This document shows, in pieces, positions 12,297 to 31,579 of a DNA stretch of 55,079 bases; within the stretch, counting starts at the first letter, position 1; every line of letters starts with the position of its first letter. The notes beneath the pieces were generated by a model. The model was given only the letters and a program-made list of their open reading frames with translations, did no database searches and was not told where the DNA came from. The DNA is from Prorocentrum cordatum. Taxonomy: Eukaryota. The stretch spans positions 62,001 to 117,079 of the forward strand of contig CAUYUJ010000186.1 of NCBI GenBank assembly GCA_963575745.1. Reading direction: 5' to 3'. Both the position numbers and the translations under genes were made by a program.

Positions 12297-12724
12297 CTGA
12301 GGGGCATCGGCCAAGCGATCCCGAATCCCTCCGCGCTCTCGCGCCGCCCCCTCGCTGGTCGGTCCGCACCCTGCCGGGTACTGGTGAACCGACCTCGGCG
12401 TCGTGGGGTGGGCGGCTCTCCTCGCCGCGCGTCCCAGCCCCCATGAGGAGCAGCGCAGGCGCGAGGGCACAGCGGACGAGGCGGACGAGGTGGGGCTGAA
12501 CCGCGAACCACGAGTAGCTTCGCGCCCTCGAAGGTGCCCTTTGCATCCCCACTGGCGTGGTCTTGGCCGGCACCACCGGCCGACTTGCCCACCCAGGTGG
12601 GGATAACTACATGCAGGCTCCTTCGGGCTTCGCGTGGCCTGTCCCCGCTGGGGAGGGTAAGCTGGCCGGCGGGGCTGAGATGCCATGGCCAGGTGGGGAT
12701 GGGGATACATTCAACGATGCTGAC

Positions 12725-12945: not shown

Positions 12946-13116
12946 CTCTCGGGGAAGGGACAGCGGCGCAAACGTAAACTTTCGGAGTTCCGCGCGGGTT
13001 TCTCGGATCAGCGCCTGGGCCCCCACCGCGCCGATCCAGGACATCCGCGTGGAGCTCCGAAAGTTTGTGCTCATGCCGCTCTTCGTTCCTCCCCAAAGGG
13101 CCGATGTCGCGTTTTT

Positions 13117-13170
13117 TACTCAACCATCCTGTGGTGCTGGGTCCTCGTTTTGAAGAGACCGCGCCCCGCG
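13117..13170. repeat. Conserved ~55-bp terminal motif (CAACCATCCTGTGGTGYTGGGTCCTCGTTTTGAAGAGAC..CGCCCCGCGT), copy 1
   Basis: Similar copies at 52823-52870 and 53957-54010, each followed by a pyrimidine-rich or (CCT)n tract. Confidence 0.85.
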
Positions 13171-13439
13171 TCTCCCTCACTCCTTCCTCGTTTCCCTCCT
13201 CTGCCCTTCCCCTTCCGTCCCTGCCTCTGCCCTCCGCGTGTCGTCGTCGTCATCGTCCTCATCATCGAAGGCGCGCCGCTGGATGCCCCCCCGGGAAAAC
13301 CCCACCCCCTCCCCTCCTTTCCCCGGTCCGTCGTCGGCGGACCCACCCCCCCTTTCAGAAGGGGGGGGGGGTCGAACCTACCCCCCCATCCCCTTCTGTG
13401 GAATCTAAATTCGGACCCCCCCCCCTCCCACCCTTTACT

Positions 13440-15475
13440 CCGGAACCCTAGCTCTGAACCCCTACCGCCAAATCCTAACCCCCTAACCTTAACACCCTAA
13501 CCCTAACCATAATCCCTAGTCCCAAACCTCTCACCCGAACCCTACTCCTAACCCTCACCCTAACCCTCACTCTAACTCTCACCCACCCAAACCCTTACCC
13601 TCACCCGCACCCGCACCCTCACCCTCTCCCTAACCCTAAACCGAACTCTAATCGAATATCGAGCCCTAACCCTAACCCAAACCCTAAGCTCTAACCCCTG
13701 ACCTCTAACCCATAACTCCCCTCACAACCCTCACCCTAACCTTGAACCTAACCTTACTACCCAACCCGCACCTCCTGACTCCCCATCCCTAGCCCTAACA
13801 CCCTAGCCCTAACTCCCGAATCCTAACTTTAGACAAACCCACAGCCAAATCCTACTATCCTAATCCTCACCCCCAGCAGCCCCAATCCCCGAATCCGAAC
13901 CATAATCGCTTAACCTTAAACCTTACCCTTACCTGACCCCCTAACCCTAACCCCCTACCCCTAACCCCTACCCTAACACCCTAATCCTGACGCTGCCAGC
14001 CTAACCCGGGCCTCCATGACACTGACCATGAGACCCTAGCCCTCACCATACCACCCGAGCCCTAACCTCCTGGCCCGAATCCTTACCCAGCCACCCTGAA
14101 TCCTAGCCCCCAAACCCTAAACCTAACCCTCTACCCCTAACCCTACCCCCCTAACCCTGTCCCTAACAACCCTAACCCTGACCACCCTAAAAAACTACCA
14201 CCCAAATCCTAACCCCCTAACCCCTATCCCTGACACCTTAACCCTAACCCTACCACCCTGACCCTAACCACTGAAACTATCTCTATCACCCTGGCCTGAA
14301 ACCTACCACCCAAACCCAACCCCCCAAACCCGATTCCGAATCCGAACAACCTAATTCGGACTCCCTGAACCTAACCCTCACCCTAACCCCCCGACCCAAA
14401 CTCTAATTCCCGAACCATAACACCCTAACCCTGATCCTGCCCCTAACCCTACCCCCTAAACCTACCACTCCAACCCTAACCCCCCTTACCCCCAACCCTG
14501 ATCCTGACCCTACCAACCTAGCCCGACCCCCCGAACCCTGGCCCTAACCTGAACACCCTAGCCCTAACCCTACCACCCCAACCCTAACCCCCGAACCCGA
14601 ACCCTAACACCCAAACCCTGATGCACTAAGCCTAACACCTTAACCCTACACCTAAACCCTAGCTCGAACTCTAACCCTAACCCTAAGCTCTAACCCCTAC
14701 CCTCTGACCCCTAACCCCTCCCCTAACCACAACCCACCATAAGCCTCACCCTAACCCTAAACCTAAACCTAAACCTACGGCCCTAAGTCGAACCCCCGAA
14801 CTCACAAACCCTAACCCTAACACTCTATCCCTAACCCCCTAGCCTTACTTTCGACACAACCAGAAACGTAATCCTACCATCCTAACCCTAGCCCCATATA
14901 GACCCCTAGCCCCCGAACCCTAACCGCCTAACACTAAGCCTAACCCTAACCCGACCCCTTTAACCCTAACCCACTACCCATAACCATTGCCCGGACACCC
15001 TAACCCTAACCCTACCACCCCAGGCCGAACCTCCATGACACTAACCCTAACATCCTCGCCCCACCCAAATCCAAATCCCCTAATCCAAACCCGAATCCGA
15101 ACCCTACCACCCTAATCCTGAACTCCTAAACCTAATCCTAATTCCCGAGCCCAAACCCTAACACCCGTACCCGAGCCATGACCTCAACCCCTCCAAACCT
15201 ACCACTCTAATCCTAACCACCCTAATCCAGATCCCCTGACGCTATTCCTACCATCCTAACCTGAACCTTACACCCAAACACGAGCCCCCGTAACCCGAAC
15301 CAGAACCCGAACACCCAAATCCAAGCACCCTAACCCTAACCCTAACCCTAACCCTAACCCTGGCCCGAACCTCCTAACCCCAATCCTGATCATAACAACC
15401 TGACCCCGACGCCCTAAGCCGAACACCCTAACCCCAACATGTTCACCCCAACCCAACCGCCCAAATCCTGACCCC
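13440..15475. repeat. Degenerate interstitial (CCCTAA)n telomere-like array
   Basis: About 2 kb of ccctaa/cccgaa/cctaac variants with no ORFs. Confidence 0.9.
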
Positions 15476-15512
15476 TTCTATCTCGGGCGCAGCACAGGGA
15501 AGCGGGAGCGGC

Positions 15513-15863
15513 ACACCCTCACACGTTACGTTGTCCCATCGGGAGCCCCACCGAAGGCCCCATTTGCTGCGTCCACATGCGTCCGGCGCCCACGTCGGCA
15601 CACCATCACACACTTCGTGGCTCCATTGGGAGCTCCACCGAAGGCCCCACTGGCTGCGTCCACATGCGCCCCGTGCCTATTTCGGCACACCGCTCACGTG
15701 ATTCGTGGCCCCAGGGGGAGCTCCACTGAAAGCCCCGTGGCTGCGTCCGCATGCGTCCCGCGCCCATGTCGGCACACCCCAGCACACGCTCCGTGGCCCC
15801 CAGGGAGCTCCACCGAAGGCCCCAGTGGCTGCGTCCACATGCGTCCACCGCGCCCATTTCGCC
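15513..15863. repeat. ~88-bp satellite, about 4 units
   Basis: Unit cacacgcttcgtggcccc..gggagctccaccgaaggcccc..ggctgcgtccacatgcg; same family as 53082-53700. Confidence 0.9.
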
Positions 15864-15864
15864 C

Positions 15865-18400
15865 TCGCTGGATACGCGCATTCTTTCCTTCGCGACCTTT
15901 CCCGGCCCAAGCGCCCCTGGCGGCTGCAGATGGCCAGCGGAACGGCAGGGTGCCCGAGACTCCGAGGCCTGGTCGCGGCGGCGGGACGCGCCTCCCCCTG
16001 CGGCGGCGCAGCGCCCTCGCTGGAGACGCCCGCCCCAACCTCTGCGACCGAACTCGGTGGTTCGGCGCCCGCCTTGGCCAAGGGCGGCGGCGTCCCCTTT
16101 GTCTTCGGCTTCGCTTCCAACTCCGCCTTCGGCTCGGAGACCGGCGCCTCCGGAGCCGCCGCCCGCTCCGAGTCCTGGCGGGGCAGGAAGGGGGCCAGCT
16201 CCTTCACGTGCTCGCCCTGGGCCGATAGCCAGCGCGGGTCCACCGGCGGCGAGCATGGGCTGTGAGCCCCCCGTTCCGCGCGCTGGCGCGTCACGCGCGT
16301 CGGCGGGCCCTCCGAGCCCGTCAAGAACCGCGCCGCCTCGAGCCCCCGCCAGCTGATCCGCGAACATGCACTGGCACGACAGCAGAGTCTGGACGCGCTC
16401 TGCGTTTCCTTTTTCGCTGGCTCGCCATCACGCGGCACTCAAGAACCACGCGAAGTGGGTCAGCAGCTCGCGGGTCGACGTCTGACCGCCCAGGGGACTC
16501 TGCTCCCGAAAATACGGGAACATAGCCATGGGCGCCACGACTTCCAAGCGAATCCCGAGCGCACAGGCAAGGGTCTCCTTCATCAGCTCGCTGACGCGAG
16601 GCCCGTGCTGAGCGAGCGCACGACGCCACTCGCGACCTCGCGCGATGCCCCGCATCTGAGTCATCGCGGACGCGCCGCCCGAGGGGGGCCCTGCTGTGCC
16701 GGAGCTTGCTCGGTGAGCGAGCCCAGCGGAGGGCGGGGCGTCGCTGGAGGGGCCTGCTGGCGCGCGAGAGCCTCTAGCAGGCATGCCGGTGCGAGGTCCG
16801 ACGTCGAGGGCGTGGTCGCAGCTGGGTCCGAGGGCCCTCCCGCGGCGGCCCCCTCGGCGGGGGCGGAACCCCAGCCGGGGCGGCCCGCCTGCCGCCGTGC
16901 ACGGAAGAGGCGGAGCCTTGACCGATGCGCCCGCGGGTCGCGGAGCTCCCCGCGCTGCCACCAGCGAGGAGGCGGGAGTGCGCGTCTTGGCCTGAGGGAG
17001 TACCCGCTGCGGGGCGGGAGGAGCCCGAGGCACGAAGCTCTGCAGGTCGCTCGGCGGGATCCCGAGGCAAGCGGCTTCGTCCTCGAACAGCCGAGGGGCG
17101 TCGCAGCGGGGCACCCCGGCTTCCTGCGGGGGCCCCGCCAGAGGCGGCGCCGGAGCTTGGCTCGGCAGGGCCGCCTGAGCCGCCAACATCGCGCGCATCT
17201 CGGCCACGACCCCCGTCCTGGTCGTAGGAGCGCCGTCGCCCAGAGCTGCGCCTGCCCGCCTGGGAGCCCGCGGCTGCGCAGCTGGAGCGGGCGAGGCCGC
17301 GATCCCTGCGCAGACCCCCGGGCGCCTCGGAGGAGGGGCCGCCGCTGGGGCCGCGGGCTCGCGTTCGCCGTCGCCTCCCGCCCCTGGCTCCGGGATGGAC
17401 CCGAGTTCCCCGACGCCCTCCGACGCCGCGTGATACGGCGTCGCCCGCTCGGCCCCTGGCAGGTCCTCCTCGCCGTCGGCAGGTGGAGCTCCGTGGAGCG
17501 AAGCGAACTGCTCGCGGAGCAGCCTCACCATGGACCAGCGCGGCCACTAGTCCCGAGTCCGCGCCGTGGCGAACGGGACGAGATCGGCTGGAATGGCCGC
17601 GGGCAGCGGCGACAAGGACTCGAGCTCCAGCTCGTTGACGTCCACGTCCAAGTCGGTCACCAGGACCGATGCCGTGGTGGCCAGGGCGCGAGAGGCTGCC
17701 CCGAGGAGAGGCACGTCCAGCACCAAGTACGGAACCAGCAGCCCAGGGAAGCCATCCGCCTCCGCGGCCGCCAGATCGGCAGCCGAGCGGAAGGCCGAGG
17801 GAAGTGCGAGCAACGCGCCACCATCTCGCTGAGCCAGCGGTTTTGCTGCGAAGCTGCGGTCCCCCTCGTCGAGCCGCCACCTGTCGTAGCTCGTCGCGGA
17901 CGGTGGCTCGAAAGGATGCAGCTCGGGCCACGCGGGGCCTTCTGGCAGCGCTGGCACAGCGGCCATCGTCACCAGCGCTCCAAGGCTCTTGCACCCATCA
18001 CCGTGACACGCGTCGGGCCCGCTGCAGAACTGACAGCGCGCACGTTGCGGGGGAGCCCGCGCGGGCGGCCCGGAGGTCGACCCGAGGGGATTAGCCCCGA
18101 AGCGGCGACGAGGCCCGAAGGGCCGACGCCGCCTTGCCGCGCAAGGCGGCTTGAGGGCCAGGGCCGTAGGCCAAGGCCCGAGCAGCTGCCCTCTCGGGCG
18201 CTGGGGTTGGCGCGCCCAGCGCACCGCGAAAGCGAGCCAGGAAAGGGCTTGCACAGCGGACCGCCAGGCCCGCGAGACAGCAGCCCCCGCAGAAGCTCCG
18301 CTGCCTGAGACGGCCAAGAAGACCCGAACGCTGGGGCCTCCTGGTCCGTCAAAGGAAGTGGGCGGCCCGCGAACCGCTCGAAGAGCGCGGCTCGCAGACC
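15865..18400 (-). pseudogene. Decayed gag-like ORF1 of an unclassified (possibly DIRS-type) retroelement, cut off by the satellite
   Basis: Reading frame with stops and a frameshift (LLALP...MFADQL...LTGSEGPP...SPPVDPRWLSAQGEHVKEL). It resembles my recollection of dinoflagellate retroelement ORF1s; no RT or recombinase is present to confirm this. Confidence 0.4.
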
Positions 18401-18657
18401 CTGGTAGAGCACAGCACCGCCCGCCTCCACCAACAGCTCCACGGTGCGCTGCATCAGTGGGCCGCGAGCCGAGGTGGGGGGGGGCGGCCGCTGGGCCGAA
18501 ACACTGCAGAGACCGCGGGGGGGAAGTCGCAGAGAATAGAGGGAGCAGGAAGAGGAGGAGGAGGAGGAGGAGGAGGAGGAGGAGGAGGAGGAGGAGGAGG
18601 AGGAGGAGGAGGAGAAGGAGGAGGAGGAGGAGGAGGAGGAGGAGGAGGAGGAGGAGA

Positions 18658-19972
18658 AGCAGCTGGCCCCAGCGGCTTGGGCTGGCTCTTGAGACCAGAG
18701 CCTCGCGGAGGTCAGGGCCCGCACCGGCTTGGCGGCGCTCGACGACCTGGAGCAGGCCAAGCAGCCCCTGGCCGCAGCCTGTTGGGCCGCCCGCCTCCTG
18801 CTGCAGCCGTCGCCGCACCCCGGTGCCGCGCCGCCTGGCGGCGGGCCGGAGGAGGAGGCCGACGCCCTCCCCGCCTGGGCCACCGTCGCCCACGAACCCC
18901 GCACCAAAGTGCAGAAAACGCTCACGCGAAGGCTTGACCAGAAAAACTGTTCGGCCTTGCAGAGCGCTTGCACGAGCGAGGAGAGGCGAGGCTGGGTTTC
19001 TGCGGCGGGCCGCACGCGGCCGCCTGGCAGCAGGCCGCGCCAGGGGCTGCGGGGCAGCGACTGAACGACGACGAGTTCTGCCTGACAGTGTGCATGCTTT
19101 TAGGCCAGGACCTGGCTCCGCCTGACACTCTCTGCGCTAACCGCACCCGCACGGGCCCGCGCGCAGGCCAGGCCTGTGGCGAGCGACTCTGCGACAAAGC
19201 ACACTACGCTTTTCGGTGTTCTTGCGGCGGCGGCGGCGTCAAGTCGCGCAGCAGGGACGTCGAGGACGTGCGGCAACGCATTCACAACGAATGCGGCTAC
19301 CCACACGGCCCGGCAGGTCCCCGTCCCCAGCTGGGACCGGTGGACGTGGCGTTGCCAGAGCTGCTTCACTCGAGGCACGGGCCACCAGCAGCCCGGCACT
19401 TGCGGCGGTTGCGGCCAACCCGTCGACTCCCGCAGAGAGGAAGCCACCCTCGAGCACAGCGCGTCGGCTGTCCGAGGCTGTTCAAAGATGTGACAATCCG
19501 GTACGCTATGCCAGGCGACGCGGCGGGCTTGGCCGCGGCCGCCGGCCGTGACGGCGGAGTGGCTGCCGCAGCGGAGGTGGACAAGAGGCAGCGGTACCCC
19601 GAGGGCCGTTGCCGTTGGCCAGTGCTTCCTTTGGCCCTCGAGACAGGAGGGCGCCACGGCAGGGCCGCCTTGCGCCACCTCGGGCAGCTGGCGCGAAACA
19701 AACGCAGCTTGTCGACGAGGACAGGGCCGGGGCGGTCTGCGGCGCCCTCTGCAAGCGTTGGGGAGCAGAGTTATCCGTGGCCTCGCACAAGGCAGCGGCC
19801 CGGCAGCTCCGGAGCAGCGCAGGCAGCCGCGAGGACGCGGCGGCTCTGCGCGAGGCAGGGAACGCTTGAGCCCGCGATGTGAAATTATTGTGTGGGGCCC
19901 ACGGACTGACTCACCTCTCCCCTGCTACCACCTGCTGGCCCGCCTCTGGCCATTCCCATTTTGCTGCCAGGC
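18658..19972 (+). mobile_element. 5'-truncated CRE-type non-LTR retrotransposon (restriction-like endonuclease C-terminus), between (GGA)n tracts
   Basis: QKTLTRRLD, ARL..GGPHAAAW, RLNDDEF..LLG, a C..C..H..C knuckle, DVTIR, AEVDKRQRY and PLALETGGR; frameshifted. Confidence 0.85.
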
Positions 19973-20326
19973 GGAGGAGGAGGAGGAGGAGGAGGAGGAG
20001 GAGGAGGAGGAGGAGGAAGAGGAAAAGGAGGAGGAGGAGGAGGAGGAGGAGGAGGAGGAGGAGGAGGAGGAGGAGGAAGGAGGAGAGGAGGAGGAGGAGG
20101 AAGAGAGGAGGAGGCAGAGGAGGATGAGGATGAGGATGAGGACGAGGAGGAGGAGGAGGAGGAGGAGGAGGAGGAGGAGGAGGAGGAGGAGGAGGAGGAG
20201 GAGGAGGAGGAGGAGGAGGAAGAGGAGGAGGAGAAGGAAAATGAAGAGGAGGCGGAGGAAGAGTAGGAGGAGAAGGAGGAGGAGGAGGAGGAGGAGGAGG
20301 AGGAGGAGGAGGAGGAGGAGGAGGAG
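19973..20326. repeat. (GGA)n microsatellite
   Basis: Direct reading. A similar tract lies at 18543-18657. Confidence 0.95.
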
Positions 20327-20351
20327 AACGTGGAAGAGGTTTGGGCCTCGC

Positions 20352-20493
20352 CTCGAGCTTGAAGCCGTGCCAGGCCCTCCGCCACCCGTCGCGCTGGAGC
20401 TGGCGCATCTCGTCGGCAGGCAGGCCCCTCCAGTGCAAGCGGTGCCAGCCGTCCTCGTGGAGGACGGGGCGGCAAAGCTTCTCGATGCCGCAC
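20352..20493 (-). CDS. Exon B of the ART-fold host gene (CGIEKLCRP...GWRRAWHGFKLE)
   Basis: Acceptor caatcAG|G, donor GAG|GC. 142 nt = 1 nt + 47 codons; phase matches exons A and C. Confidence 0.85.
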
Positions 20494-20536
20494 CTGATTG
20501 CGCTGAGGAGGGCCAGGACGAGAAGGTGCTGCTAGT

Positions 20537-20918
20537 GAGGGGGAGGGGGAGGAGGGGGGAGGAGGAGGAGGAGGAGGAGGAGGAGGAGGAGAAGGAGGAG
20601 GAGGAGGAGGAGGAGGAGGAGGAGGAGGAGGAGGAGGAGGAGGAGGAGGAGGAGGAGGAGGAGGAGGAGGAGGAGGAGGAGGAGGTGGAGGAGGAGGAGA
20701 AGGAGGAGGACAACGAGGGGGGAGGAGGAGTTGGAGGAGGAGGAGGAGGAAAAGAAGGAGGAGGAGGAGAAGGAGGAGAAGGAGAAGGAGAAGGAGGAGG
20801 AGGACGATGACGATGACGATGATGATGATGGTGATGATGATGATGATGATGTTGATGATGATGATGATGATGATAATGATAATGATGATGATGAGGAGGA
20901 TGAGGATGAGGAGGATGA
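20537..20918. repeat. (GGA)n then (GAT)n microsatellite at the LINE-A 3' end
   Basis: Direct reading. Confidence 0.95.
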
Positions 20919-23099
20919 TGGTCCCCGCGTCTGAAGGGGTCAGGAGCTCCTAGCTCGAACTGCCCCTCGGACCGAGGCGTTTCCCTATGGCCCTGCGGAA
21001 GCAACGCTCGGCCTCGTGCGCCTCAACACACACGCGCAGATCGCCCGAGTGACGTGAGCAATCAACCGCCTCAGCCGAGGCAAGCGGGTGACCGATCCAA
21101 GAAGTCGAAGCGACTCAGCACGCTCGGCAGCTGGCGAAGGCCACGCTGGCGGTCTAGCAGGCTGGTACACACCTGGGCTGTACGCCGCACCTGAGAAACA
21201 ACTAGGTCGATAGGACCAGGCCACTGCTGACCGACGTTGCTCCTCAGGCCTGCGGAGATCGAACCAGAGCGCGGGCGAAACTACACTCTCGGGTCGCCCA
21301 TCCACGTCGAGTGACGGGCAGGGCACTGACGCGGTAGCGCCAGAAGCTACATTGCGCAGGAGGCGTGCACACACGCCGAACAAAAAGGAACCTCGTATGA
21401 GGGCATCGGAACCACCGCCCCGACCCAGCCCAACGCGCATCTCCCGTGCGCGCTGTGGTGTCGCGCCTGATGCGGCTGAGTCGGTGCCCTTGGGCCAGTG
21501 CACGTGGCTGGCCAGCAAGCAGATGCAGGGGTGGGGAGGGAAACGTGGCAGCGGTCAAAGCGTCCTGGCAAACCCAGACCAAGTCCGTGCCGCTCCCCTC
21601 CCCCCCAATGGACAAGTGCACCACCTCCCGGCTGGCGGAACCCCAAAGCCCGAGTTCCAGGGCTGGCTGCGAGACACCAGCACCGCCAGAGGTCGGCAGC
21701 GGCAGTGCGACAGTATCACCCGTCTGGCGGAACCCCACGGCCCGAGTTCCAGGGCTGGCTGCGTAGCACCAGCACCGGCAACCAGGACGAAGCTGCAAGG
21801 GAAGCGGCGGGAGGAAGGGCACGGAGCGTGCCGCAAAAGACAAGTCAAGTGCAGCACCGCAGGACCCATCAGCAGAGCAACATGTCCCTTCGGCCCCAAG
21901 CCACACACTGGACTATTGCATTGCCAATTGAAGGGCCCCGATCCCGTGCTTGGGCGGACCTGCGCACCTGGGTCAGCCTTCTCTGAAGCTTGCTGCGCGG
22001 CAGCCGCAGCTGCTAAAAGGTGGCAGCACCGAGCACAGAGCCATGCTGCAAAAGAGTCGGAGCCCGATCCCTTGCGTGAGCGAACCTACACACCTGGTTC
22101 AGCTTCCGTCGCTAAAGCGGCAGCTGCACGCGCGCGCATCGAGCGTGGGCCATGCCCGCGGTGAGAGACCGCCGAAGGCAGCGACTGGCGACCTGACCGC
22201 CAGCAACGCAACTGCCCTCCAGGCACCAAGCCCCGCTAAGGACTTGTTGCATTGCCGACGGTATCGGGCCCGATCCCGCGCGTCAGCGAGCCGATGCACA
22301 TGGTTCAGGCCCGAACTGGGCAAGGGAGGCTAGCCGTCCACCCGCCTGCGAAGGCATCGCAGGGGTTCAGGGTCGCCGATGCCGCCCTGCCCTGCTGGCT
22401 GCGGCCCTCGCTTGAGGCGGCCGAGCTTCTGCCCGTCGCTCCTGGGCGCCCTCGGACACACCCGACATCCTGACGCTCTGCGTCCAGTAGCAGCACTTGA
22501 CGCAGAAGAGGTGGTTACCTGCACGCCATCGCTCATGGGAGGCGTGTGGATCGAGCACCCACCACTGTAGAAGCGTAGAAGCGCGGGTGGGGGCGGTGGC
22601 AGCGGCTGCGCCACAGGTGCTGCCCCCCGTTGCTCGTGAGCTGCAGCGGCCGCGCCGCCGCTGCCAGACGAAGCCCCGCCACCTCCACCGCGACGCTGAT
22701 CCCCGCCATCTGCTGCTGCTGCTGCGCTCTGCGAGCCGCTGGCCTGGCTGGAGAGCAAAGCCGCGCTCGCTGTGAGGGGGGCCGCGGCCGCGGCGACCGC
22801 GCCCGAGGCTCCCTCTGAGCCCGAAAGCCACGAGCCCGAGATCGCCTCGCCCCGACCAGCGCATTCCTGGCAGGCCCAGAGCGTGTCGCTGCCGACCTCG
22901 AGCCATGTCCAGCGTCTGCCGCATGCCCTCCGCGCGCAGTCGCGAAAACAGCAGTGGCTCCTCCAGCGCAGCTTGCATCCATGCCAGTCGCACCGCACCG
23001 CCGCCATGCCTGGCCCTTCGTGGCCGTCCACGGCGGTCAGCTCTGCGTCGCCCTTCTGCATGGCGGCGCCCAACCAGCGGGATGCCTTTTTGGCGAAGC

Positions 23100-23610
23100 G
23101 GTTTTGGCGCAGGCTGCGCTCGCGAACCGCATCGTCCGCGGGATGCATCTCAGCGCCCTGAATGGCGCGAGCGTCCGCACTGTGGTTACCCCTGCACTGC
23201 CAGGTTGCGATGCGCTCTGCCTGTACGTCCGCCAGCGTCGCGTGGGCCTTCACGTTGTGGATCGTGACGTTGTCGAGACCGATGTCCTCGAACGCTCGCC
23301 ACAAGCGAACCCATAGTTCTCGATCGGGCCGCTGCCACTGGAGGCACCATGCCTTGCCGGCTGCGAGGCCATTCACTAGCAGCTGGCAGTCGGTGAAGAT
23401 CCTGACTGGCGGGCGGCAGACCTGTAGCCCCTCGATGACAGCTGCCAGCTCCGCGGCCCCCGACTCTTGTGGGCATGGTCAAGGGGCGGGCCGAAGATGC
23501 CGAGGGCCTCCGCGTCGCTGCTCATGACGACGGCAGCCCAGCCACCCCTTGCGGATACCAGGCTGGGGTCCAGGACGCTGCCGTCGGTGGAGATGTCCCC
23601 AACCAATGGA
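23100..23610 (-). pseudogene. LINE-A RNase H domain
   Basis: DISTDGS...GGWAAV, IFTDCQ, RELW, VKAH, GNHSAD. Confidence 0.85.
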
Positions 23611-24439
23611 TGGCCCACGAGATCGGCGCGCCCTTCCTTGCGCGCCAGGCGCTCCTCCGTGGGCAGGGGGAGTGAACGCCTATGCTCGGGCGCCAGGGCC
23701 CTCGACCAAAGCGGGTCCTCCGCCGCCTCGGCACTGGCCACGTCGACGAGGGTCCCGGAGTGGAAGTCGTCGGGCGCCCTCCTCTCGTCTGCGTCGTCAT
23801 TGGCCTCCCACTCTGCACGGCCGAGCGCGGTGGCAGGGCGCTGCCGCGCCAGGTGCCGCACCGTGCCGTGTGCAATGCACCCGCGAGGGCACCAGGGCGA
23901 CGACGCCAGCGCGTTGTTGGCCGAGCTCATCTGCCTGGCCGCTTGCTGACTCATACGCTTGCGGTGCAGGGTGCGCCTGATGCTGGACAGGGCCCCCCCT
24001 GAAGCCAAGTGCTCCAAGCCAGGATGCCTAGCCGCATCCCTCCGCAGCAGCCGCTCATGGCTGGCGCCGATGTGCTTGGAGAGGGTCGAGGCGCCCAAGG
24101 CCTTCAGGTCGATGGGCTGCTTCAGGTCGTTGAGGAAGAGGCCTGGCCGCAGAGATGGCATGCCATCCCAGGCAGTGGCATGCCAACGCGCATGCCGATG
24201 CAAGGCCCCTGCCAGAAAGTGCCTCAGGCCCCTCAGCATCCTTCCTCGCCAATGCCCCTTCGAACGCACTCCCGAATGCACGCGAGTCCGTGCGGTCCGC
24301 GTTGGACTGTGTCGCCTTGGCCCACGCAACGATGGGCAGCGTCGCGTGGTCGACAAGCGGGTCGCTGGCCAGGCGCTTGCTTTGGAGGAAACTGAGGCTG
24401 AGGCTCTTGCACGTCCCTCTGCCGTGGTGAACGGCATTG

Positions 24440-25680
24440 GCCTGCCTCCGCCACTTGGTGAGCTGCGGCGACGGCCAGCCCACCGCGCTCAGGCCGTATT
24501 TGGTTGCAGGCCTGAGCCCCCTGTTGGCCACACGCGCTGCTGATGGTGTCTCCTGGGAGCGGATGGCGCGCAGCCTCTGCAGCTGCGCTGCCGCCTTGGT
24601 GTGGCGCGCCTCGAGCACCACGAAGGCCTGGCCGTCAAGTCAATAGTCCACTCGCAGGTTCTTGACCGAGTCGGCGATGAGAAAGGCGGCACCCCCCATC
24701 TGCTTGGCCACCGGTGAAGCCAGCTCAGGCGAGCTCGCAAGCAACTCGCTCTTCGACTCCGACACCTTGCAGCCCAGCGCCACGAGCTGCGCCGCCGCGG
24801 CCTTGGTCGCCTGGGCAACGTGCGCTGCGACCTGTGCCATGCGGCCGTGGCACCCAACGCAGTAGTCGTCGAACATGATGGCTAGGGTGGCCCGAGGCTC
24901 CAGCACCCGCCATAGGCGCGCGTGCTTTCATCGGCCAACATCAGCAGGCCGCACTCGAGGAGCCGCCCTTGCGTGCGAGCAACCAGCGAGGAGGCCCGCG
25001 TCGAGCAGGCATGGGTCGGAGACGCTGCCGTCTAGCATGAAGCGCCGCGCGCCCGCAGACAAGGTCAGCGCCATGCCCAGCAGCCCCGTCGGGTAGCCCG
25101 CCATGGTGCTGCGGTCCTGGATGATCGCCAGGTCTACCAGCTCGTAGGCTGTCGATGAGTGATGCTGCAGCTACCTCGCCTCGTGCTTGCGATGCCTCGG
25201 CTCGGAGCGCTTGCCACCAGACGGCCTCTTCGGCCGCGCGCCCGCGGCCGCCCCAGAATGCGCCTGCTACGCCTGGGTCGATCTGGGAGCCCCAGTGCCG
25301 CGCGTCTGGCTGACGGACGCGACTCCAAAGGCGCGGCAGCCAGCCCAGCAGGCTTATGGGCCGAAAGCACCCTTGAGGCTTGGGCGGCATCACCACGAGA
25401 GGTTGGGTGATGACGTCGGGCCAGCCGCCCAGCTCCTCGCACCGCATCCCGAAATCGGTGATGACCTCCAAGAGGGCGTCGCTGAGGTCCGCTGCCTTTC
25501 TGGGGGTTAGGCGATCGCTGCCAACGCCAGTGCTGTGCCTGAGCGCCTTGGCGGCCTGACGCACCCGATCGGCCGAGGGCCTGGCCAGAGCCTCCGCCTC
25601 GGTAGGCGGTCGCCATGGGCGGAAGCGAGCACTGCCCTGTTGGACCCGCCAGACCTCGGAGGTCCACTGTTGCGCCACGA
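24440..25680 (-). pseudogene. LINE-A reverse transcriptase
   Basis: TGVGSD, GWP, PKPQGCFRPISLL, SLID, AIMFDD, CKVSESKS, VKNLRVD; frameshifted. Confidence 0.85.
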
Positions 25681-27411
25681 CCTTCGCCCGGTCGGGGCCG
25701 CGCGCTGGAGCGCCGCGCAGTTCGTCGTCGGGTGCCCAGCCGCGCGGCCCCCGCCTTTAGGCGTGGAGGCCCCCAGCGCCTGCTGCCATGGATGTGCGGA
25801 TCCACTCCTCGGACCCCTTGCAGCGAATGGCGGCAAAAGCGGCGCGCTCCGCCTCGGCCGCGGCCCTGGCCTCGGCAGCCCATTCGGCCAGGGGCAGCAG
25901 GTCGGGGCAATCGGCCGCCAGGGCTACGCGCGCGGCCCACTGCGCCCCCAGCGGGAGGCCCTCCCTCCATGGTCGGGGGCTTCGGGGATGCCGCACCTGC
26001 GCGCACAGCTCTGCCGTCCGCGCTGCCGCCGCCGCTGCTGCCGTCGCAGCCGCCGTCGCTGGAATCCGACGGAAGGTCCCCGTGATACCGCATGGGATGC
26101 TTGACGGACTGAATGTAGCTGTAGTGCTCGTCGTCCGCTACTGCCCACGCGTCGGGGCGGCTGGGCTCTAGGGCGATCATGCCGCGGTGGTACTCGTCCC
26201 TCGCAGGCTGCGCGACAGACGGGCTCTCCTCGCGCAACTCCACGGCCCTGTTCCAGCGTGCGGCCGCTCGGTCCGTGAACGGCTGAGCCGTGCAGGTGCC
26301 GTTCTCGCCCTCGCTGCCAGCGCTGCCGCTGCCTGTGGCTGCCGCTGTCGAAGCCGATGTTGCATGCCCCGCGCTGGGGGCTGCTGGGTGCCCTCCACCT
26401 GCTGCCGCCAGTGTGGCGAAGGATCCTGGAGGGTGCTGGATAGGGATCGCGCTGGTCCTCTCCGCGGCTGCTGCTCCCAGCGCGACCCCTGCGCCTCCGC
26501 CGCTGGGTGCCCCCGCGGTGTTCGCGTCGGCGGCGCCATGGCCATCGTGCTGGCAGAAGCGTGCAAGTGCGTAGTGCGTGCACAGCTCCATCCACTCGGC
26601 CTCGTCGCGCTCTGGGTCGGGAGCCTGCAAGGTGTGGGAGCCAGCCTCGCGCGATGCCCTGGAGGGCCCCCCGAACTCCTTGCGCGCCAACCTCGATGGC
26701 GCTCCACTCGCCGGGAGCCGCCACTCCCTCAAGAGCGGCGCAGAGGGTGGGGGGCTGCGGCGTCGCCCGAGGGTCGCCACTCAACTTGGGCTGCGGCGTC
26801 GCCCACGGGCATCCACCCCCGTGCGGCCCCCGATCCGTCGGGGGCCTGGTCGAAACATCGAAGGCGAAAGTGGCGCCGAGGGGCCTGCTGTAGTCGCCGC
26901 GCTCCTCTAACCGCCGCTTCGATTCCGCGTGGTCGACGACAGTTCGGCGGCGCGCCCCCCCGCCATCCTCGGGATGTAATTGGCCGAGATGTCGGAGAAT
27001 ACGAACCAGCTCGCGCCTGCCAGGGCCCCCGCGCCGCCGCGCAGAAAAGCAGATCTCTCTCGCGGTGCGCATGCGGTTGTCGAAATCCTGCGCCGGGCCT
27101 GTGGCGACGCGCGTCGGCAAGTCCAGCGTGCGGAAGATGTAGGGCTCGCACTTCTCCATCCACTCGGCCTCGTCGTTGTGGTGGTTGGGGTTGCTAGGGT
27201 TTGAAGCCGAGCTGCGCGCTCGGCGCCCCGACGCGCGCTTGCAGCGCTTGATTGCCCTGGCCTGCATGCGCTCAGCCTCGCGGCGCTCGGGGCCCAGCTC
27301 AAGGCGCCCCTCAAACGCGGGCCCCCCGTCGTCGGCCTCGGCGCCGCCTGTGAGAGACCTCCCCCGTGTGAAGTCGTCGCTCAGGTGCATGAGCCCCCCC
27401 CCCCCCCCCCC

Positions 27412-28494
27412 TTGAAGCTGTCCTTAGGGCCCTTGATGGGGCGCGCCTTCGCCTGGGAGCCGAAAGCGAACTTCGGCGGACCCCCCCGTCCCCGATCGAA
27501 GTCGGCGTCGTCGGGGTCGGTCTGGTGCGCCCAGACGAGCTCCTCATCTACGCCCTCGCAGAGCCCCTGGTAGGCCTCCTCCATGTCCTGCAAGGCGCCG
27601 CCCATGTCAATCTGCGCCCAAACAGCGCTGTGCTCCCAGTGCATCTCCAGCATGGGCCCGAAAGGGCGGGCCTTGGGGAACGCCATCGGCCCCTTGACCC
27701 TGAACGATTGGCCCATGTCACCGCAGCAAGTGAAGCTGAGCTGCACTGCCATATGTGGGCGGCAAGGGTTGGCGCACCCCTGGGCGGTCATGCCCGGGCG
27801 CTTGCAGGCGAGGACTCGGTCGAACGTATCGGAGCTGACAATGAAGCAGTCTAGCTCCGAGGGCTCCTTGGTCGGGGAATACTGGCAGGTGCCCGCGCCC
27901 GCGTCAACGACGTGGCCGCCGACTTCGCAGAGCCAACGCCCCGCGCGTTGAAGGAAACGCTCGGGCTCCACGTTCCAGTCGCCCGCGGTGACCCACGGCT
28001 TCCCTGTGCGCTTGAGGAGGGGGCCGACCTCCTGCAGCACGGACTGGCCGGTCTCGCCGACGTCGTCGTTGTCCACGAAAACGGAGCCCAGCCGGAACCC
28101 GCCAGGTACCGTTCCATTGACATGGGCTACCGTGGCCCTTCCGTTCAGAGACCTGGCAGCTGGCCTTGCAGCCCTGATCGCCGGGGCCGCACATGCCGCT
28201 GGTGGAGCGCACTGCGACCCCGGTGCCACCGCTCACCGCGCGCTGCTGCGTTGCCCCCACGGAACTCACGCCTGGGGTCAGCACCGCGTTCCAGCCGACC
28301 AGCCTGCACCGCTGCTCCTGCTCGACAACTCGGTAGCCGTTGAGGTGGTGTTCCTGGAAGCAGATCGCGTCTTCCATGCGCGCGTCGGCGACCACCTGCT
28401 GCTGAGGGCCCAACTGCCCGCCGAGGATGGTCGCGAAGGGGCCCCGACCGCTGCCGTTGAGGCTGACCGCCGTGAATATAGGCTTGCTACCCAC
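27412..28494 (-). pseudogene. LINE-A AP-endonuclease domain
   Basis: SLNG, ICFQEHH, GGTGVAV, AGDWN, LDCFIVS, RPH. Confidence 0.85.
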
Positions 28495-28509
28495 GCTTCC
28501 CCCTCCGCT

Positions 28510-29685
28510 TGAGCCCCGCCGAGCGGAGGCTCTGGAGGAGCTTCTGCGCGCGGAGCCCGCGCCTCTGGGCGGCTTGGGCTGCGGGGCCCCCGCGTCGAGC
28601 CCCTTCGTCGCCGCTGCCGGCGCTTGCTGCCGCGCTGCCCTCCTCCGCGGGGACCTCGACCTCTTCCTCCATGCTGTACAAGATGTTGCTGAGGTCGGCC
28701 TCCTCGAGCTTCTCGTCGCCGCTGTCGCGTTATGCTGTTGCGCCCGCTGCCGCGACGCTGCGAGCCAGCCGACGCTGCTGGGAGACTTGCTTCTCCCAGT
28801 GCTGAGCGTAACCTTTGTTGAGCATGCCAGGGGCCTGGTCCAAAGCTTCCAAGAAAGCTGTAGCGCGTTCGCCCTCGCTGAGTGGGGCAGCTGGGGACCC
28901 AGGCGCTGCTGCTATGGCGCCCGACACCACCACTTCTTCTCCGAATTGCTCTCCGCGCTCCCGTTTGTACTTGGCCAAGAGGTTGTCGATGAGCGCCTGG
29001 AGCTCCTTCTCCGCTGCCTTGCTCTGCTCGTGCTTGCCCTCGAACTCGAGCTTCTGCGCCTCGAGGCCCGTGATCCCCCTCGCGGTGTCCTTTATCTCCC
29101 TGTCGAGCGCCTCCGAGCTGCTCCGCTGGTTCCGCTGTTTGCGCTCGATCTCGCTGAGCTGCACGGGCGTGGGCTTCTCCTCGGCGAGCTCGTGCTCCAG
29201 CTGCAGCACCTCCTGCCGCTTGCCCGCCAGTATTTCAGCTGCGCCCTCCACTCCTTCGAGTTGTTTGATGTCGCTCCGCAAGTTCCCGAGTCGCCGTGCC
29301 CTCTCGTCCTTCGGTGCGGCGTGGACTGCTGCTGCGCCTCCATCGCCCCCTGAAGCTGCGCGAGCATTTCCTTCGAGCTTTTTGACCTTGCGCCGCAGCT
29401 GGTTGAGCTCGTTTCGTTCCTTGGCGTCCAAGTGCGACATGCCCCTCCGCCACGAGCTTGCACCCTATCTTTGCTCCCACCAATCAAATCCGCAGCTACG
29501 GCCTACGTGCCTGGAGCCCCAGTTCTTCTTGGCTCCGCACTTGGGACGGTCCCAGGCGTTGGGCTGGCTGCCGCCACCGCTGCTGCCCCCAACTCCGCCT
29601 GGCTGACCTCCTCCGCATCCGCCTCTGCCGCCTTGCTGCCGGCGCCGCGCGCGGCACCCCGCGCACCACCACCGAGTCGTGCCAT
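28510..29685 (-). pseudogene. LINE-A ORF1 (degenerate RanBP2-like Zn finger + coiled coil)
   Basis: WDRPKCGAKKNWGSRHVGRSCG (a W-x-C-xx-C...N...R-xx-C-xx-C pattern with two Cys lost), then a heptad-rich ELNQLRRKVKKLE region. Confidence 0.7.
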
Positions 29686-29870
29686 GCCCGCCGCGGCTGG
29701 GCTCCCAATCGGGCGACTGGGGCCAGGTGTCGGAAAAGGTTATGGAAATGAATGAACAGTGGCCGCAAAGGCCTCGCTGAAAGCTAGGTCGATTTGGAAT
29801 CTGACCCAAGAAGGAACGCGACGGCTAGAGCCAACCACATGAAACCAGACATCTGCGCTGATCGCGCCAT

Positions 29871-29907
29871 CTTGAGCCAAAATGGCTTGAGCCAAAATGG
29901 ATACGGA
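29871..29907 (-). other. Dinoflagellate spliced leader (22 nt, 1 mismatch) plus a 15-nt relict leader
   Basis: Minus strand reads TCCGTATCCATTTTGGCTCAAG (29907-29886) then CCATTTTGGCTCAAG (29885-29871). Canonical leader: DCCGTAGCCATTTTGGCTCAAG. Confidence 0.95.
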
Positions 29908-29930
29908 TGATGATGATGATCATGATACGG

Positions 29931-30443
29931 CTATCCCCTTGCAGCGAGACATCCAACAAGAGACGGCTTTAGTAAACAATCGAGCGGCCGCTCAGGACAG
30001 CCGGAGGGCGCCCACGGGAGCAGCATCCGGGAGCGACGCCGCCAGCAGCAGGTCGGCCAGGCGCGCCGTGAGGGCGCCGGACACCTTGGCCGACACCTGC
30101 CGCGCGAAGTCCGCGCCGAGGCGGCCGATCGGCTCGCCTGGGAGGACCGCGGTGCGCCGCGCTGCGGTGGCGACCTCCGCCACGAAGCGCTGCGCGGCGG
30201 GGCAGAGCCGGCCTTCGGTCTCAACCGCGAAGGCCACGACCGAGTCGCCGTACCTGTCCTTTTTGCGCCGCTCCGCGTCCATGGCCGCATGGCCGACTGC
30301 GCGGACAGCCGGGCCCGATTCCCCAGGCGAGCGAACGGTGACGTCGACCCAGGTCGGCGTGGGCAGACCCGGCCAACTCACAACGAGGTCGAGCCGAGCC
30401 TCGGTGATTTCGCCGCCGGCCTCCCGGTACAGCTCTGGCACGC
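29931..30443 (-). mobile_element. 3' fragment of a CRE-type non-LTR retrotransposon (restriction-like endonuclease)
   Basis: EARLDLVV, WVDVTVR, AERRKKDRY, AFAVETEGRL, followed by a stop and a short 3' UTR. Confidence 0.85.
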
Positions 30444-30499
<56 letters not shown>

Positions 30500-30778
30500 C
30501 ATGATGATGATGATGATGATGGTGATGATGATGCTGGTGATGTAGGTGGTGACGATGATGCTGCTGATGATGATGGTATTGATGATGGTGATGATGTTGT
30601 TGATGTTGGTGATCATGCTGCGACTGATGAAGATGACGATGAATATGATGTTGCTGCTGATGATGGTGATGATGCTGATGTTGGTGGTGATAATGATGAT
30701 GATGATGGTGATGAAGATGAATATCAATATTAACATGAATATGAATATGATGATGCGGGTGATGATGATGATGCTGCT

Positions 30779-30850
<72 letters not shown>
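30444..30850. repeat. (GAT)n compound microsatellite
   Basis: Direct reading. Confidence 0.95.
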
Positions 30851-30863
30851 ACTGATGCCGCAC

Positions 30864-31294
30864 CTGCCGGCGCTGAGGAAGGCCAGGATGAGGTTGACGT
30901 CGGCCGCGGTGGCCTTTGGCATCCCCCGCTGCTGGAAATGCTCCTTGGCCCTCGCGCCCCAGTAGATCTCCGCCCCCGGGCGGTTCCAGTCCTTAGGCCC
31001 ACCGTGGCAGTCCAGGTGGTAGTGCGGGATCGTGGCTGGCCTGGAGCCGTATTGGACAATCTCGATGAAAGCAGGCATCTCCGCGCCCTCCACGTCCTGC
31101 CCGAGCGGGGGGAGCACGAGCGGGCTGTCTGGAAACAGGGCCTTCACGCACTTGTGGGCCCGGAGCGCCTTCGCCTCACGGCTGCGCAGCTGCATCCTGA
31201 TGGTGCCTAGCCGGTGCTCGACCCCTTCACCATCGCTGCCGTCCAGCCAGATGTCGTCAACCGGGGCGGCCACGGGTTCACCTCCTCCTCCCTC
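30864..31294 (-). CDS. Exon A of the ART-fold host gene (EGGGGEPVAAPVDDIW...VNLILAFLSAG)
   Basis: Acceptor cccccgcAG|G, donor AG|GT. 431 nt = 143 codons + 2 nt; complex, stop-free sequence. Confidence 0.8.
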
Positions 31295-31579
31295 CTGCGG
31301 GGGCCCCCGTTTTGGGACCTCGGAGGACCCACTTGCTCGAGACGCCCTCGGACAACGGCCGGCGTCCCGAAACCGTGCGGTCACCCCGAATCCCGACTGA
31401 TCGGGAAACCAAGACTGCCATACACATACACTTTCGGAAGTCCGCGCTGATTTCTTGCATCGGCGCCGGAGGCGTCGCAAGAGGGCTCCAGCGCAGATCC
31501 TGGAAATCTGCGCAGCGCCCTTGGTTCTGGGGCCCTCCGACTCCTGGCGGAAAGCGCCGACTGCACCCGACGGGTGCTC

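What the first reader, a model, noticed from the sequence alone, without database searches (positions are those of the whole stretch)
20484..30892. 10.4-kb intron bounded by a 39-bp direct repeat that supplies both splice sites: possible intron birth by long target-site duplication
Seen: 30854-30892 and 20484-20522 are 34/39 identical and both contain CAG|GTGCGGCATC on the minus strand. One copy gives the GT donor (30863), the other the AG acceptor (20494), and splicing restores one copy in frame (LILAFLSAGR|CGIEK). The intron consists of (ATC)n, a CRE 3' fragment, the SL-capped LINE-A and an (ATC)n/(CCT)n tail, all in the gene's sense orientation. Known: short repeated intron-boundary sequences and Introner transposons occur in dinoflagellates, and duplicating an AGGT-containing segment can create an intron. 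Inference: a staggered-cut insertion with a ~40-bp TSD, from retrotransposition or microsatellite-filled repair, created the intron instantly and gave later elements a safe harbour.
Basis: partly seen in the sequence, partly recalled or inferred. Interest (0 to 1): 0.85.

Follow-up and report, generated by a model that had tools for sequence, protein, structure and literature searches.

The report
Intron bounded by 39-bp duplicated exon segment
A dinoflagellate gene carries a genuinely spliced 10.4-kb intron whose two ends are copies of one 39-base piece of the original exon, a clear fossil of an intron born by an insertion that duplicated its target, which is a known route to new introns seen here with an unusually long duplication.

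Summary
On the minus strand, 30892..30854 and 20522..20484 match at 34 of 39 bases, with an identical 13-base core CAGGTGCGGCATC. One poly(A) RNA-seq contig (run X1, 884 nt, no mismatches) joins 30863|20492 and two further introns of the same gene. The joined frame is open over 294 codons. All 16 of 16 homologous proteins carry the duplicated peptide once. So 10,370 bases plus one repeat copy are removed, and a once-continuous exon is restored.

The best reading is that the intron arose when this CAG|GT-containing segment was duplicated around inserted DNA, so one copy gives the donor and the other the acceptor. This is the textbook "insertion into AGGT" model, with a duplication far longer than the 2-12 bp usually reported.

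Not shown:
- which event made the duplication: retroelement TPRT, staggered-break repair, or a 39-bp tandem duplication later inflated by microsatellites and retroelements;
- whether orthologues lack the intron;
- whether creation was instant.

The other two introns verified by RNA have ordinary 6- and 3-base boundary repeats. No terminal inverted repeats were found.

Verdict: a real, well-preserved single case of a known kind, of moderate interest.

The parts
30854..30892 (-). Boundary repeat, copy A. It covers the last 29 nt of the upstream exon (ending CAG) plus the first 10 nt of the intron (GTGCGGCATC), and supplies the GT donor at 30863-30862.
   Evidence: RNA contig
20484..20522 (-). 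Boundary repeat, copy B. It covers the last 29 nt of the intron (ending CAG, AG at 20495-20494) plus the first 10 nt of the downstream exon. All 5 mismatches to copy A lie in its intronic part.
20494..30863 (-). The intron, 10,370 nt, GT..AG, phase 2 (after the second base of an AGG codon).
   Evidence: table 8 (record 1 of X1)
30864..31274 (-). Upstream exon, as far as the RNA contig reaches. It encodes ...DIWLDG...NRPGAEIYWG...LILAFLSAG(R).
20352..20493 (-). Downstream exon (142 nt with canonical cuts). It encodes (R)CGIEKLCRP...AWHGFKLE and is flanked on both sides by (CCT)n arrays.
30444..30853 (-). Degenerate (ATC)n array directly abutting copy A. Copy A itself ends in ATC.
29906..30443 (-). 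5'-truncated piece of a repeated element: the last 149 codons of an ORF (30441-29992), about 60 nt of untranslated tail and a short (ATC) run.
   Evidence: (6 relatives; 4 are named Prorocentrum cordatum by the source)
29871..29905 (-). Two spliced-leader relicts, one full-length-like and one truncated, directly before an ATG.
   Evidence: tables 3 and 6 (17 read ends at 29900; 8 of 8 X24 reads differ at 29901)
22330..29870 (-). Body of a non-LTR-retroelement-like insert. It has an RNase H domain, reverse-transcriptase motifs seen by eye with frameshifts, and a faint endonuclease/exonuclease/phosphatase match.
   Evidence: RNase_H E 8.7e-8; Exo_endo_phos E 0.14, below cut-off
20936..22329 (-). 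Non-coding 3' region of the insert, with short internal direct repeats.
20523..20935 (-). (ATC)n changing to (CCT)n, then a 14-20-nt non-repeat or degenerate stretch, abutting copy B. This is a long pyrimidine run just upstream of the acceptor.
12946..20351 (-). Next intron of the same gene: 7,406 nt, GC..AG, with a 6-nt boundary repeat GAGGCG.
12297..12724 (-). Third intron: 428 nt, GT..AG, with a 3-nt identical boundary repeat AGG (7 of 9 when extended).
   Evidence: table 5 (skips 428, both = 3)

Best explanation
This is a working spliceosomal intron of a dinoflagellate nuclear gene from a conserved, uncharacterised protein family.

It most likely arose when foreign DNA was inserted into a once-continuous exon through a staggered cut, so that 39 bp of the target were duplicated on both sides of the insert. 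The duplicated piece contains CAG|GT. The upstream copy therefore offers a donor (CAG|GTGCGG) and the downstream copy an acceptor (...CAATCAG|G). Splicing from one to the other removes the insert plus one copy and restores the original reading frame.

The intronic part of the downstream copy then drifted (5 changes in 26 nt). Microsatellite arrays grew, and at least two retroelement pieces now lie inside.

Shown: the repeat, the splicing, the single copy in homologues, and the direction of one change.
Inferred: that duplication and insertion were one event, and that a retroelement's target-primed reverse transcription made it (favoured) rather than staggered-break repair.
For: - The repeat matches at 34 of 39 and sits exactly at both intron ends, with 2 sites in the window against 0 expected.
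- An mRNA contig joins the exons inside the 13-nt identical core with no mismatch over 884 nt, and the ORF is open over 294 codons.
- 16 of 16 homologues hold the segment once.
- Phe at the AFL position is found in 15 of 16 homologues and in the exonic copy; the intronic copy has Leu.
- All 5 mismatches lie where the downstream copy is intronic.
- The similarity ends abruptly at both outer edges.
- The intron holds retroelement material.
- Literature, passages read: insertion into AGGT with duplication gives the donor AG|GT and acceptor AG|G (PMC3443670). Dinoflagellate introners can take both splice sites from an AGGH target duplication (bioRxiv 10.1101/2020.10.14.339549). Non-LTR retrotransposon-derived introners exist, including in dinoflagellates (PMC12130899). 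Restriction-like-endonuclease LINEs make target duplications of 20 bp and longer (PMC3636483, PMC4640811).
Against: - Neither recognisable retroelement abuts a repeat copy; microsatellites do, so the element that made the duplication is not identified.
- No empty site, orthologue or paralogue without the intron was seen.
- The placement of all 5 mismatches in the 26-nt part is not significant on its own (my arithmetic: C(26,5)/C(39,5) = 0.11).
- Only 1 of the 4 amino-acid-changing base differences (3 codons) could be polarised.
- Splicing rests on one contig of one run.
- The arrays next to each copy resemble the copy's own end (ATC after ...GGCATC; CCT/CTC before CTCGTCCTGGCCCTCCTC). This also fits growth from a tandem-duplication junction.
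- About 19% difference in the intronic part argues for an old event, not a recent one.
Confidence: 0.55

Rival explanations
1. A tandem duplication came first. A 39-bp in-frame tandem duplication (13 codons) of the AGGT-containing exon segment arose by slippage. The junction (...CATC|CTCATCCTGG...) seeded (ATC)n and (CCT)n arrays, which grew. Retroelements then landed in the arrays, and splicing between the two AGGT copies took over once the spacer was long enough.
For: - 39 is a multiple of 3.
- The array next to copy A is (ATC)n and copy A ends in ATC. The array next to copy B is (CCT)n and copy B starts CT-rich.
- Both retroelement pieces are flanked by (ATC) runs, as if inserted into an existing array.
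- Tandem duplication of an AGGT segment is the intron-gain route with experimental support (PMC3443670, passages read).
Against: - A 14-20-nt stretch that is not plainly microsatellite lies between the (CCT)n array and copy B, although it could be a decayed repeat.
- A 39-nt first-stage 'intron' would probably be too short to splice, so a 13-residue insertion and then a growing poly-Ile/Leu tract would have had to be tolerated in a conserved region.
Confidence: 0.25
2. An older intron already sat at this position with an ordinary short boundary repeat. The extra 26 nt of exon-like sequence at its 3' end were copied in later, for instance by a conversion tract from a spliced cDNA or from a paralogue.
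For: - Dinoflagellate genomes recycle cDNAs, and spliced-leader relicts lie in this very intron.
- A paralogous transcript exists: a contig of run X3 follows the downstream exon from 20477 and then differs (table 7), and its other letters are absent from the window.
Against: - It needs a non-homologous end placed precisely at the acceptor.
- It does not explain why the similarity also covers the first 10 intron bases at the donor side.
- No intron at this site appears in any of the relatives' loci that could be read, although these are distant.
Confidence: 0.1
3. The gene is a chimaera of two tandem paralogues. The upstream copy kept its 5' half and the downstream copy its 3' half. The 39 nt are the only surviving overlap, and everything between became intron.
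For: - Tandem gene arrays are usual in dinoflagellates (PMC5032977, passages read).
- Two of the three amino-acid differences between the copies are conservative: Ile/Val and Phe/Leu.
Against: - No further remains of either paralogue lie in the 10.4 kb (tblastn gives no other significant match).
- Only 1 of the 5 differences is synonymous (my reading), which looks like drift rather than two selected copies.
- The overlap ends sharply on both sides.
Confidence: 0.05
4. The match is a chance resemblance or an assembly artefact.
For: None beyond the general low complexity of the neighbourhood.
Against: - 0 matches in 100 shuffles against 2 observed, and a binomial chance of about 3e-15.
- The copies differ at 5 sites, so they are not an assembler's duplicate.
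- The exon order agrees with an independent RNA contig.
Confidence: 0.02

Closest known systems
Identical repeated intron boundary (IRIB) sequences of dinoflagellates (Mendez et al. 2015, PMC5032977; abstract and passages read)
   Same: [quoted passage not shown]
   Different: The reported IRIBs are 2-9 bp and identical. Here the identical core is 13 nt and the recognisable repeat is 39 nt with 5 mismatches. The other two verified introns of this gene (6 and 3 nt) are ordinary IRIBs.
Introner-like elements of Symbiodinium and Polarella that recruit splice sites from their target-site duplication (bioRxiv 10.1101/2020.10.14.339549; passages read)
   Same: A target duplication flanks the insert, and in some classes (AGGH duplication) it provides both the donor and the acceptor.
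   Different: Those are short DNA-transposon-like elements in many near-identical copies, with inverted repeats and 4-8-nt duplications. Here there are no terminal inverted repeats. The duplication is 39 nt and the interior is 10.4 kb of microsatellites and retroelement pieces. Copy number elsewhere in the genome could not be tested.
'Transposon insertion into AGGT' model of intron gain (Yenerall and Zhou 2012, PMC3443670; passages read)
   Same: It has exactly this logic: AGGT duplicated on both sides of an insert gives AG|GT and AG|G, and splicing leaves the coding sequence unchanged.
   Different: The model assumes a duplication of a few bases. Here AGGT lies inside a 39-bp duplication, so 26 nt of exon sequence survive as a decaying copy at the intron's 3' end.
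Intron gain by repair of staggered double-strand breaks in Daphnia (PMC4202315; passages read)
   Same: [quoted passage not shown]
   Different: Those repeats are 4-12 bp (33 cases), the introns are short and their source is mostly unknown. Here the repeat is three times longer and the interior is recognisable repeat DNA.
Long target-site duplications of non-LTR retrotransposons with a restriction-like endonuclease (CRE, R4, R9, reptile Utopia; PMC3636483 and PMC4640811, passages read)
   Same: Staggered nicks tens of bases apart give duplications of 20 bp and more. Many such elements target microsatellites, as the pieces here seem to.
   Different: Membership of the element in the intron is not shown. 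Pfam, a PDB profile search and a structure prediction gave nothing. The resemblance of its C-terminal motifs to that endonuclease is my recollection only. No element end abuts the repeat.

Membership tests
Spliceosomal intron (U2-type, dinoflagellate) | Removed from mature mRNA with exons joined in frame | tested here: met
   table 8: one poly(A) RNA-seq contig joins 30863|20492 with no mismatch; the ORF is open over 294 codons.
Spliceosomal intron (U2-type, dinoflagellate) | A G[T/C/A] donor and an AG acceptor followed by G | tested here: met
   GT lies at 30863-30862, AG at 20495-20494 and G at 20493. The usage frequencies quoted for one dinoflagellate (GT 24.7%, AGG acceptor 79.7%) come from PMC10666404, passages read.
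IRIB (identical repeated intron boundary) | The same sequence lies at both splice sites, in the same register, and once in the mRNA | tested here: met
   A 13-nt identical core in register, held once in the RNA contig. Its length lies outside the described 2-9 bp range.
Target-site duplication of a mobile-element insertion | A direct repeat immediately flanks the inserted DNA | tested here: met
   The copies sit at 30892..30854 and 20522..20484, with everything between them being non-gene DNA.
Target-site duplication of a mobile-element insertion | The sequence is single-copy at the empty (pre-insertion) site | tested here: inconclusive
   Tested only at protein level in relatives: 16 of 16 homologues hold it once. 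No empty genomic site of this gene was available (some searches found distant relatives only).
Target-site duplication of a mobile-element insertion | The termini of an identifiable element abut the two copies | tested here: not met
   Microsatellite arrays abut both copies. The retroelement pieces start 410 nt and end about 410 nt away from them.
Introner / introner-like element | Many near-identical intron copies across genes of the genome | not testable with these tools
   No genome is held, and there is no second copy of the insert in the window.
Introner / introner-like element | Terminal inverted repeats (8-20 nt) with short direct repeats near the intron ends, the definition used in PMC10666404 | tested here: not met
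   The best inverted match between the first and last 100 nt scores 4, no better than shuffles (mean 4.7, maximum 7).
Non-LTR retrotransposon (the large insert) | Reverse transcriptase together with endonuclease and/or RNase H domains on one strand | tested here: inconclusive
   RNase_H passes Pfam (E 8.7e-8). Exo_endo_phos is only at E 0.14. No RVT family was hit. Reverse-transcriptase motifs were seen by eye in frameshifted ORFs.
CRE-type or restriction-like-endonuclease LINE (the 3' fragment) | A C-terminal zinc knuckle plus a PD-(D/E)XK endonuclease domain after a reverse transcriptase | tested here: inconclusive
   There are 6 relatives, with 0 Pfam families for the shared domain. PDB searches were empty. 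The model has pLDDT 39 and is unusable. The motif resemblance is recalled, not tested.

The most novel reading that the evidence does not exclude
In large dinoflagellate genomes, ordinary (non-introner) insertions make staggered cuts of about 40 bp and create introns at once whenever the duplicated exon piece holds AGGT. Such insertions could be retroelement or microsatellite-tailed cDNA integrated by target-primed reverse transcription. On this reading, the short 'identical repeated intron boundaries' seen at most dinoflagellate introns are the selected cores left after the intronic halves of such long duplications have decayed. This intron would be a caught intermediate: core intact, flanks 19% diverged.
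Probability: 0.25. Interest if true: 0.65.

Novelty: new member of a known kind. Interest (0 to 1): 0.42.

Why it matters
Direct sequence fossils of how a particular intron was born are rare. Most intron-gain models rest on 2-12-bp repeats that could be chance or splice-signal constraint.

Here the duplicated piece is long enough to be unambiguous. It is shown to be single in 16 homologues, and RNA shows it to be the place of splicing. It therefore documents the 'duplicated AGGT' route in a lineage noted for intron richness and odd splice signals.

It also gives a testable idea for the origin of dinoflagellate boundary repeats. A genome-wide count of boundary-repeat length against intron age and content would settle whether long duplications are common or whether this is a one-off. 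As a single case of a known mechanism, it does not change the field.

Tried and rejected
- Own genome search: none is held, so no genome-wide boundary-repeat survey and no search for other copies of the inserts was possible.
- Rfam on the whole window: 0 matches.
- Pfam on the host exons: 0 families. On 8 family members, only a faint PARP match in 1 of 8 (E 0.065). A PDB profile search of the family was empty. The gene's function stays unknown.
- Comparative test for intron presence: one metagenome scan gave 36 loci of distant relatives at 25-47% identity. In 34 of 36 the match to P0002 runs through the site (about residue 229-231) in one piece, but DNA cannot be told from cDNA there. L022 and L023 show 1-nt frameshifts and a stop rather than introns. 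Only L019 has an intron-like AT-rich interruption, at another place. I draw no conclusion on the age of the intron from this.
- Association of microsatellite blocks with flanking direct repeats: 1 of 26 blocks (31590-31826, a 16-nt repeat matching 15 of 16) stands out, and a second hit is itself low complexity. This is not a general rule in the window.
- Looking for a common unique sequence next to the (GGA)n/(GAT)n arrays: only 8-9-nt resemblances that chance can give, so I dropped it.
- Classifying the 3' fragment: the Atlas gave unnamed clusters only. The structure model had pLDDT 39.2, so no fold search was run. PDB searches were empty. A profile comparison does link it to a second, plus-strand ORF at 18938-19882 in the next intron (hhalign probability 84%, E 7.8e-6; plain BLASTP E 0.13).
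- Upstream exon junction: a 250-nt X1 contig ends its match at 31862.
- Loose end of an X3 contig at 20477: its other letters are not in the window, so it is a paralogue or an exon outside the window. I did not pursue it.
- Dating the large retroelement from the laid contigs: the pieces on it are mostly 21-34 nt (table 8), too short to mean anything.

Full report
**Observation**

On the minus strand, 30892..30854 reads CTCATCCTGGCCTTCCTCAGCGCCGGCAGGTGCGGCATC, and 20522..20484 reads CTCGTCCTGGCCCTCCTCAGCGCAATCAGGTGCGGCATC. They match at 34 of 39 positions. The last 13 nt (CAGGTGCGGCATC) are identical, and all 5 mismatches lie in the first 26 nt.

A 25-letter pattern of the repeat hits only these two places in the window, with none in 100 shuffles. 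The binomial chance of such a match at fixed register is about 3e-15.

The similarity ends sharply. Upstream of the copies, 5 of 20 positions agree (my count). Downstream, copy A runs into AGT(ATC)n while copy B runs on into coding sequence.

**The gene**

An exhaustive protein search with the upstream exon found two true relatives, P0002 and P0003; a third hit, P0001, is a repetitive bacterial-type protein and irrelevant. A word-based search with P0002 found 15 proteins.

tblastn of P0002 and P0003 on the window maps the gene on the minus strand to 31255-30864, 20493-20349, 12948-12722 and 12304-12158, with a weak match at 31909-31838.

In an alignment of 16 homologues with the window's exons, every homologue carries the duplicated segment once and continues directly, for example ...FLDNRCGVHKLCRP....

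The family has no Pfam domain. One of 8 members gives a faint PARP match (E 0.065), and a PDB profile search is empty.

**RNA**

Of the 24 listed runs, 20 hold words of the upstream exon, and 4 of those are on record as RNA. I laid 4 runs on 12100-32000.

In run X1 (poly(A) RNA-seq, Logan contigs), record 1 is 884 nt at depth 9.3. It lies on 12187-12295, 12724-12942, 20349-20492 and 30863-31274, at record positions 1-109, 110-328, 329-472 and 473-884. It has 0 other letters and 0 gaps. The two large joints are not listed in table 5 of that call; they follow from table 8.

The aligner's cut 30863|20492 lies inside the 13-nt ambiguous core. The canonical cut is 30864|20493 (GT..AG). The joined sequence is open in one frame over 294 codons and reads ...DVNLILAFLSAGRCGIEKLCRPV....

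The raw-read run X24 covers the exons thinly, at 0.5-0.8 per bin. Nearly all of that is with the first mate on the plus strand, which fits a minus-strand RNA in a usual stranded library. It gives no joint rows. The splicing evidence is therefore one contig of one run.

**Other introns of the same transcript**

The 7,406-nt intron (GC..AG) has a 6-nt identical boundary repeat, GAGGCG. The 428-nt intron (GT..AG) has a 3-nt repeat, AGG, or 7 of 9 when extended. These are ordinary dinoflagellate boundary repeats. The 39-nt repeat is the exception within this gene.

**Inside the intron, in the gene's sense**

- 410 nt of degenerate (ATC)n sit directly after copy A.
- The last 149 codons of an ORF follow, plus about 60 nt and a short (ATC) run. 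Its 6 database relatives include 4 that their source names Prorocentrum cordatum. One relative has reverse-transcriptase-like motifs upstream, seen by eye.
- Two spliced-leader relicts lie before an ATG. Reads of many other mRNAs pile up there (tables 3 and 6).
- About 7.5 kb of frameshifted retroelement ORFs follow, with a Pfam RNase H domain.
- Next come 1.4 kb of non-coding sequence.
- Then about 400 nt of (ATC)n changing to (CCT)n, and a 14-20-nt stretch before copy B.

There are no terminal inverted repeats and no second copy of the insert in the window. The label 'CRE' could not be confirmed.

**Origin**

A coding segment that is single in 16 of 16 relatives is present twice, and the two copies bound precisely what the spliceosome removes. 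No known selective force would keep 26 nt of upstream-exon sequence at an intron's 3' end, so a duplication event is the economical source.

At the one difference that can be polarised, the exonic copy keeps the family's Phe (15 of 16) and the intronic copy has Leu. The Ile/Val site is uninformative: Ile, Val, Phe and Met occur 4 times each among the 16. Of the 5 differences, 1 is synonymous, which fits drift. All 5 lie where copy B is intronic, but that placement alone has a chance of 0.11 (my arithmetic).

I favour an insertion with a staggered 39-bp cut (0.55), made either by target-primed reverse transcription or by break repair. Against a simple version of this, neither retroelement piece touches a repeat copy. 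Both pieces look as if they landed in an existing (ATC)n array.

The main rival (0.25) is a 39-bp in-frame tandem duplication whose junction seeded the arrays. The arrays next to each copy do resemble that copy's own end. Either way, the intron would owe its splice sites to the duplicated CAG|GT.

A pre-existing intron with a later conversion (0.1), a paralogue chimaera (0.05) and chance (0.02) are less likely.

About 19% difference in the intronic part (roughly 0.22 substitutions per site by Jukes-Cantor, my arithmetic) points to an old event, not a recent one.

**What is known** (passages read in each paper, through find)

- Dinoflagellate introns carry identical boundary repeats of 2-9 bp (PMC5032977).
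- Introner-like elements of Symbiodinium and Polarella have 4-8-nt target duplications, and some classes take both splice sites from an AGGH duplication (bioRxiv 10.1101/2020.10.14.339549).
- Introners derive from many transposon types, including non-LTR retrotransposons, in dinoflagellates too (PMC12130899).
- The 'insertion into AGGT' and 'tandem duplication of AGGT' models are standard (PMC3443670).
- Daphnia neo-introns have 4-12-bp exon repeats (PMC4202315).
- A survey of 213 introns reports border repeats of 4-30 bp with a mean of 11.4. In its length table as shown in the passages I read, the entries of 25 bp and more are plastid group II or III introns (PMC11782384).
- A genome paper on a high-G+C Prorocentrum reports a mean intron length of 4.7 kb and searched only for 3-5-nt direct repeats with inverted repeats (PMC10666404).
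- In four literature searches and these passages I met no spliceosomal intron with a boundary repeat near 39 bp. That is a limited search, and supplements were not read.

**Verdict**

The idea that the duplication gave birth to the intron is the best reading, but its cause, timing and generality are open. The mechanism is a known one. The case is a new, unusually clear member with an unusually long duplication.

Noticed in passing
window 31849-31864 and 31564-31579 (minus strand): A 16-nt direct repeat, GAGC[G/A]CCCGTCGGGTG, matching at 15 of 16. It flanks a roughly 270-nt (GGA)n block in the gene's upstream part. There are 2 sites in the window; 3 of 100 shuffles reach 2 sites when 2 mismatches are allowed. 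The second copy encodes EHPSG, which matches homologues (EEHPT/S). This may be a second duplication around a microsatellite insert. Splicing there is unresolved.
   Followed up: partly
window 13481-13753, 14370-14777, 14912-15014: Three arrays of CCCTAA on the plus strand (TTAGGG in the gene's sense). These are telomere-like repeats lying inside the 7.4-kb intron.
   Followed up: no
window 29871-29905 (minus strand): A retroelement copy begins with one full-length-like and one truncated spliced-leader relict directly before its ATG. That implies it was copied from trans-spliced mRNA at least twice. Reads from other mRNAs end at 29900 (17 molecules) and differ from the DNA at 29901 in 8 of 8 X24 reads.
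   Followed up: partly
window 18938-19882 (plus strand): An ORF, antisense to the gene and inside the next intron, is a distant relative of the C-terminal domain of the fragment at 29992-30441 (hhalign probability 84%, E 7.8e-6; BLASTP only E 0.13). It is followed by 86 nt and then the (AGG)n array at 19969-20326, which ends 22 nt from the boundary repeat at the exon's donor end.
   Followed up: partly
window 19969-20326 and 20537-20804: The 142-nt exon at 20352-20493 is flanked on both sides by (CCT)n arrays in the gene's sense, about 40 nt before its acceptor and 25 nt after its donor.
   Followed up: no
window 20477 (run X3): One contig follows the exon from 20477 downward and then carries 31 other letters that are absent from the window. 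This is either a paralogous transcript or an alternative upstream exon joined at the AG at 20479-20478 (table 7).
   Followed up: partly
window 31862-31950 (run X1): A 250-nt RNA contig matches 31862-31950 and then leaves the laid stretch or was not listed. The exon structure between 31862 and 31274 is therefore unknown. No canonical splice pair joins the two copies of the 16-nt repeat.
   Followed up: partly
window 47308-48222 vs 51927-52817; 53080-54700; 15509-15861; 1489-1690 vs 8947-9148: Other repeats in the window: a 0.9-kb pair at 82% identity, tandem arrays with a period of about 90 nt shared between 15.5 kb and 53-54.7 kb, and a 202-nt pair at 93% identity.
   Followed up: no
host gene, exons 31274-12187 (minus strand): The protein family (AWHG.K.EALYSI ... 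PGVY.H ... GDGVFWAAKWE ... TDQW ... ALW.CG) has no Pfam family. One of 8 members touches PARP at E 0.065, and one carries a C-terminal RING finger.
   Followed up: partly
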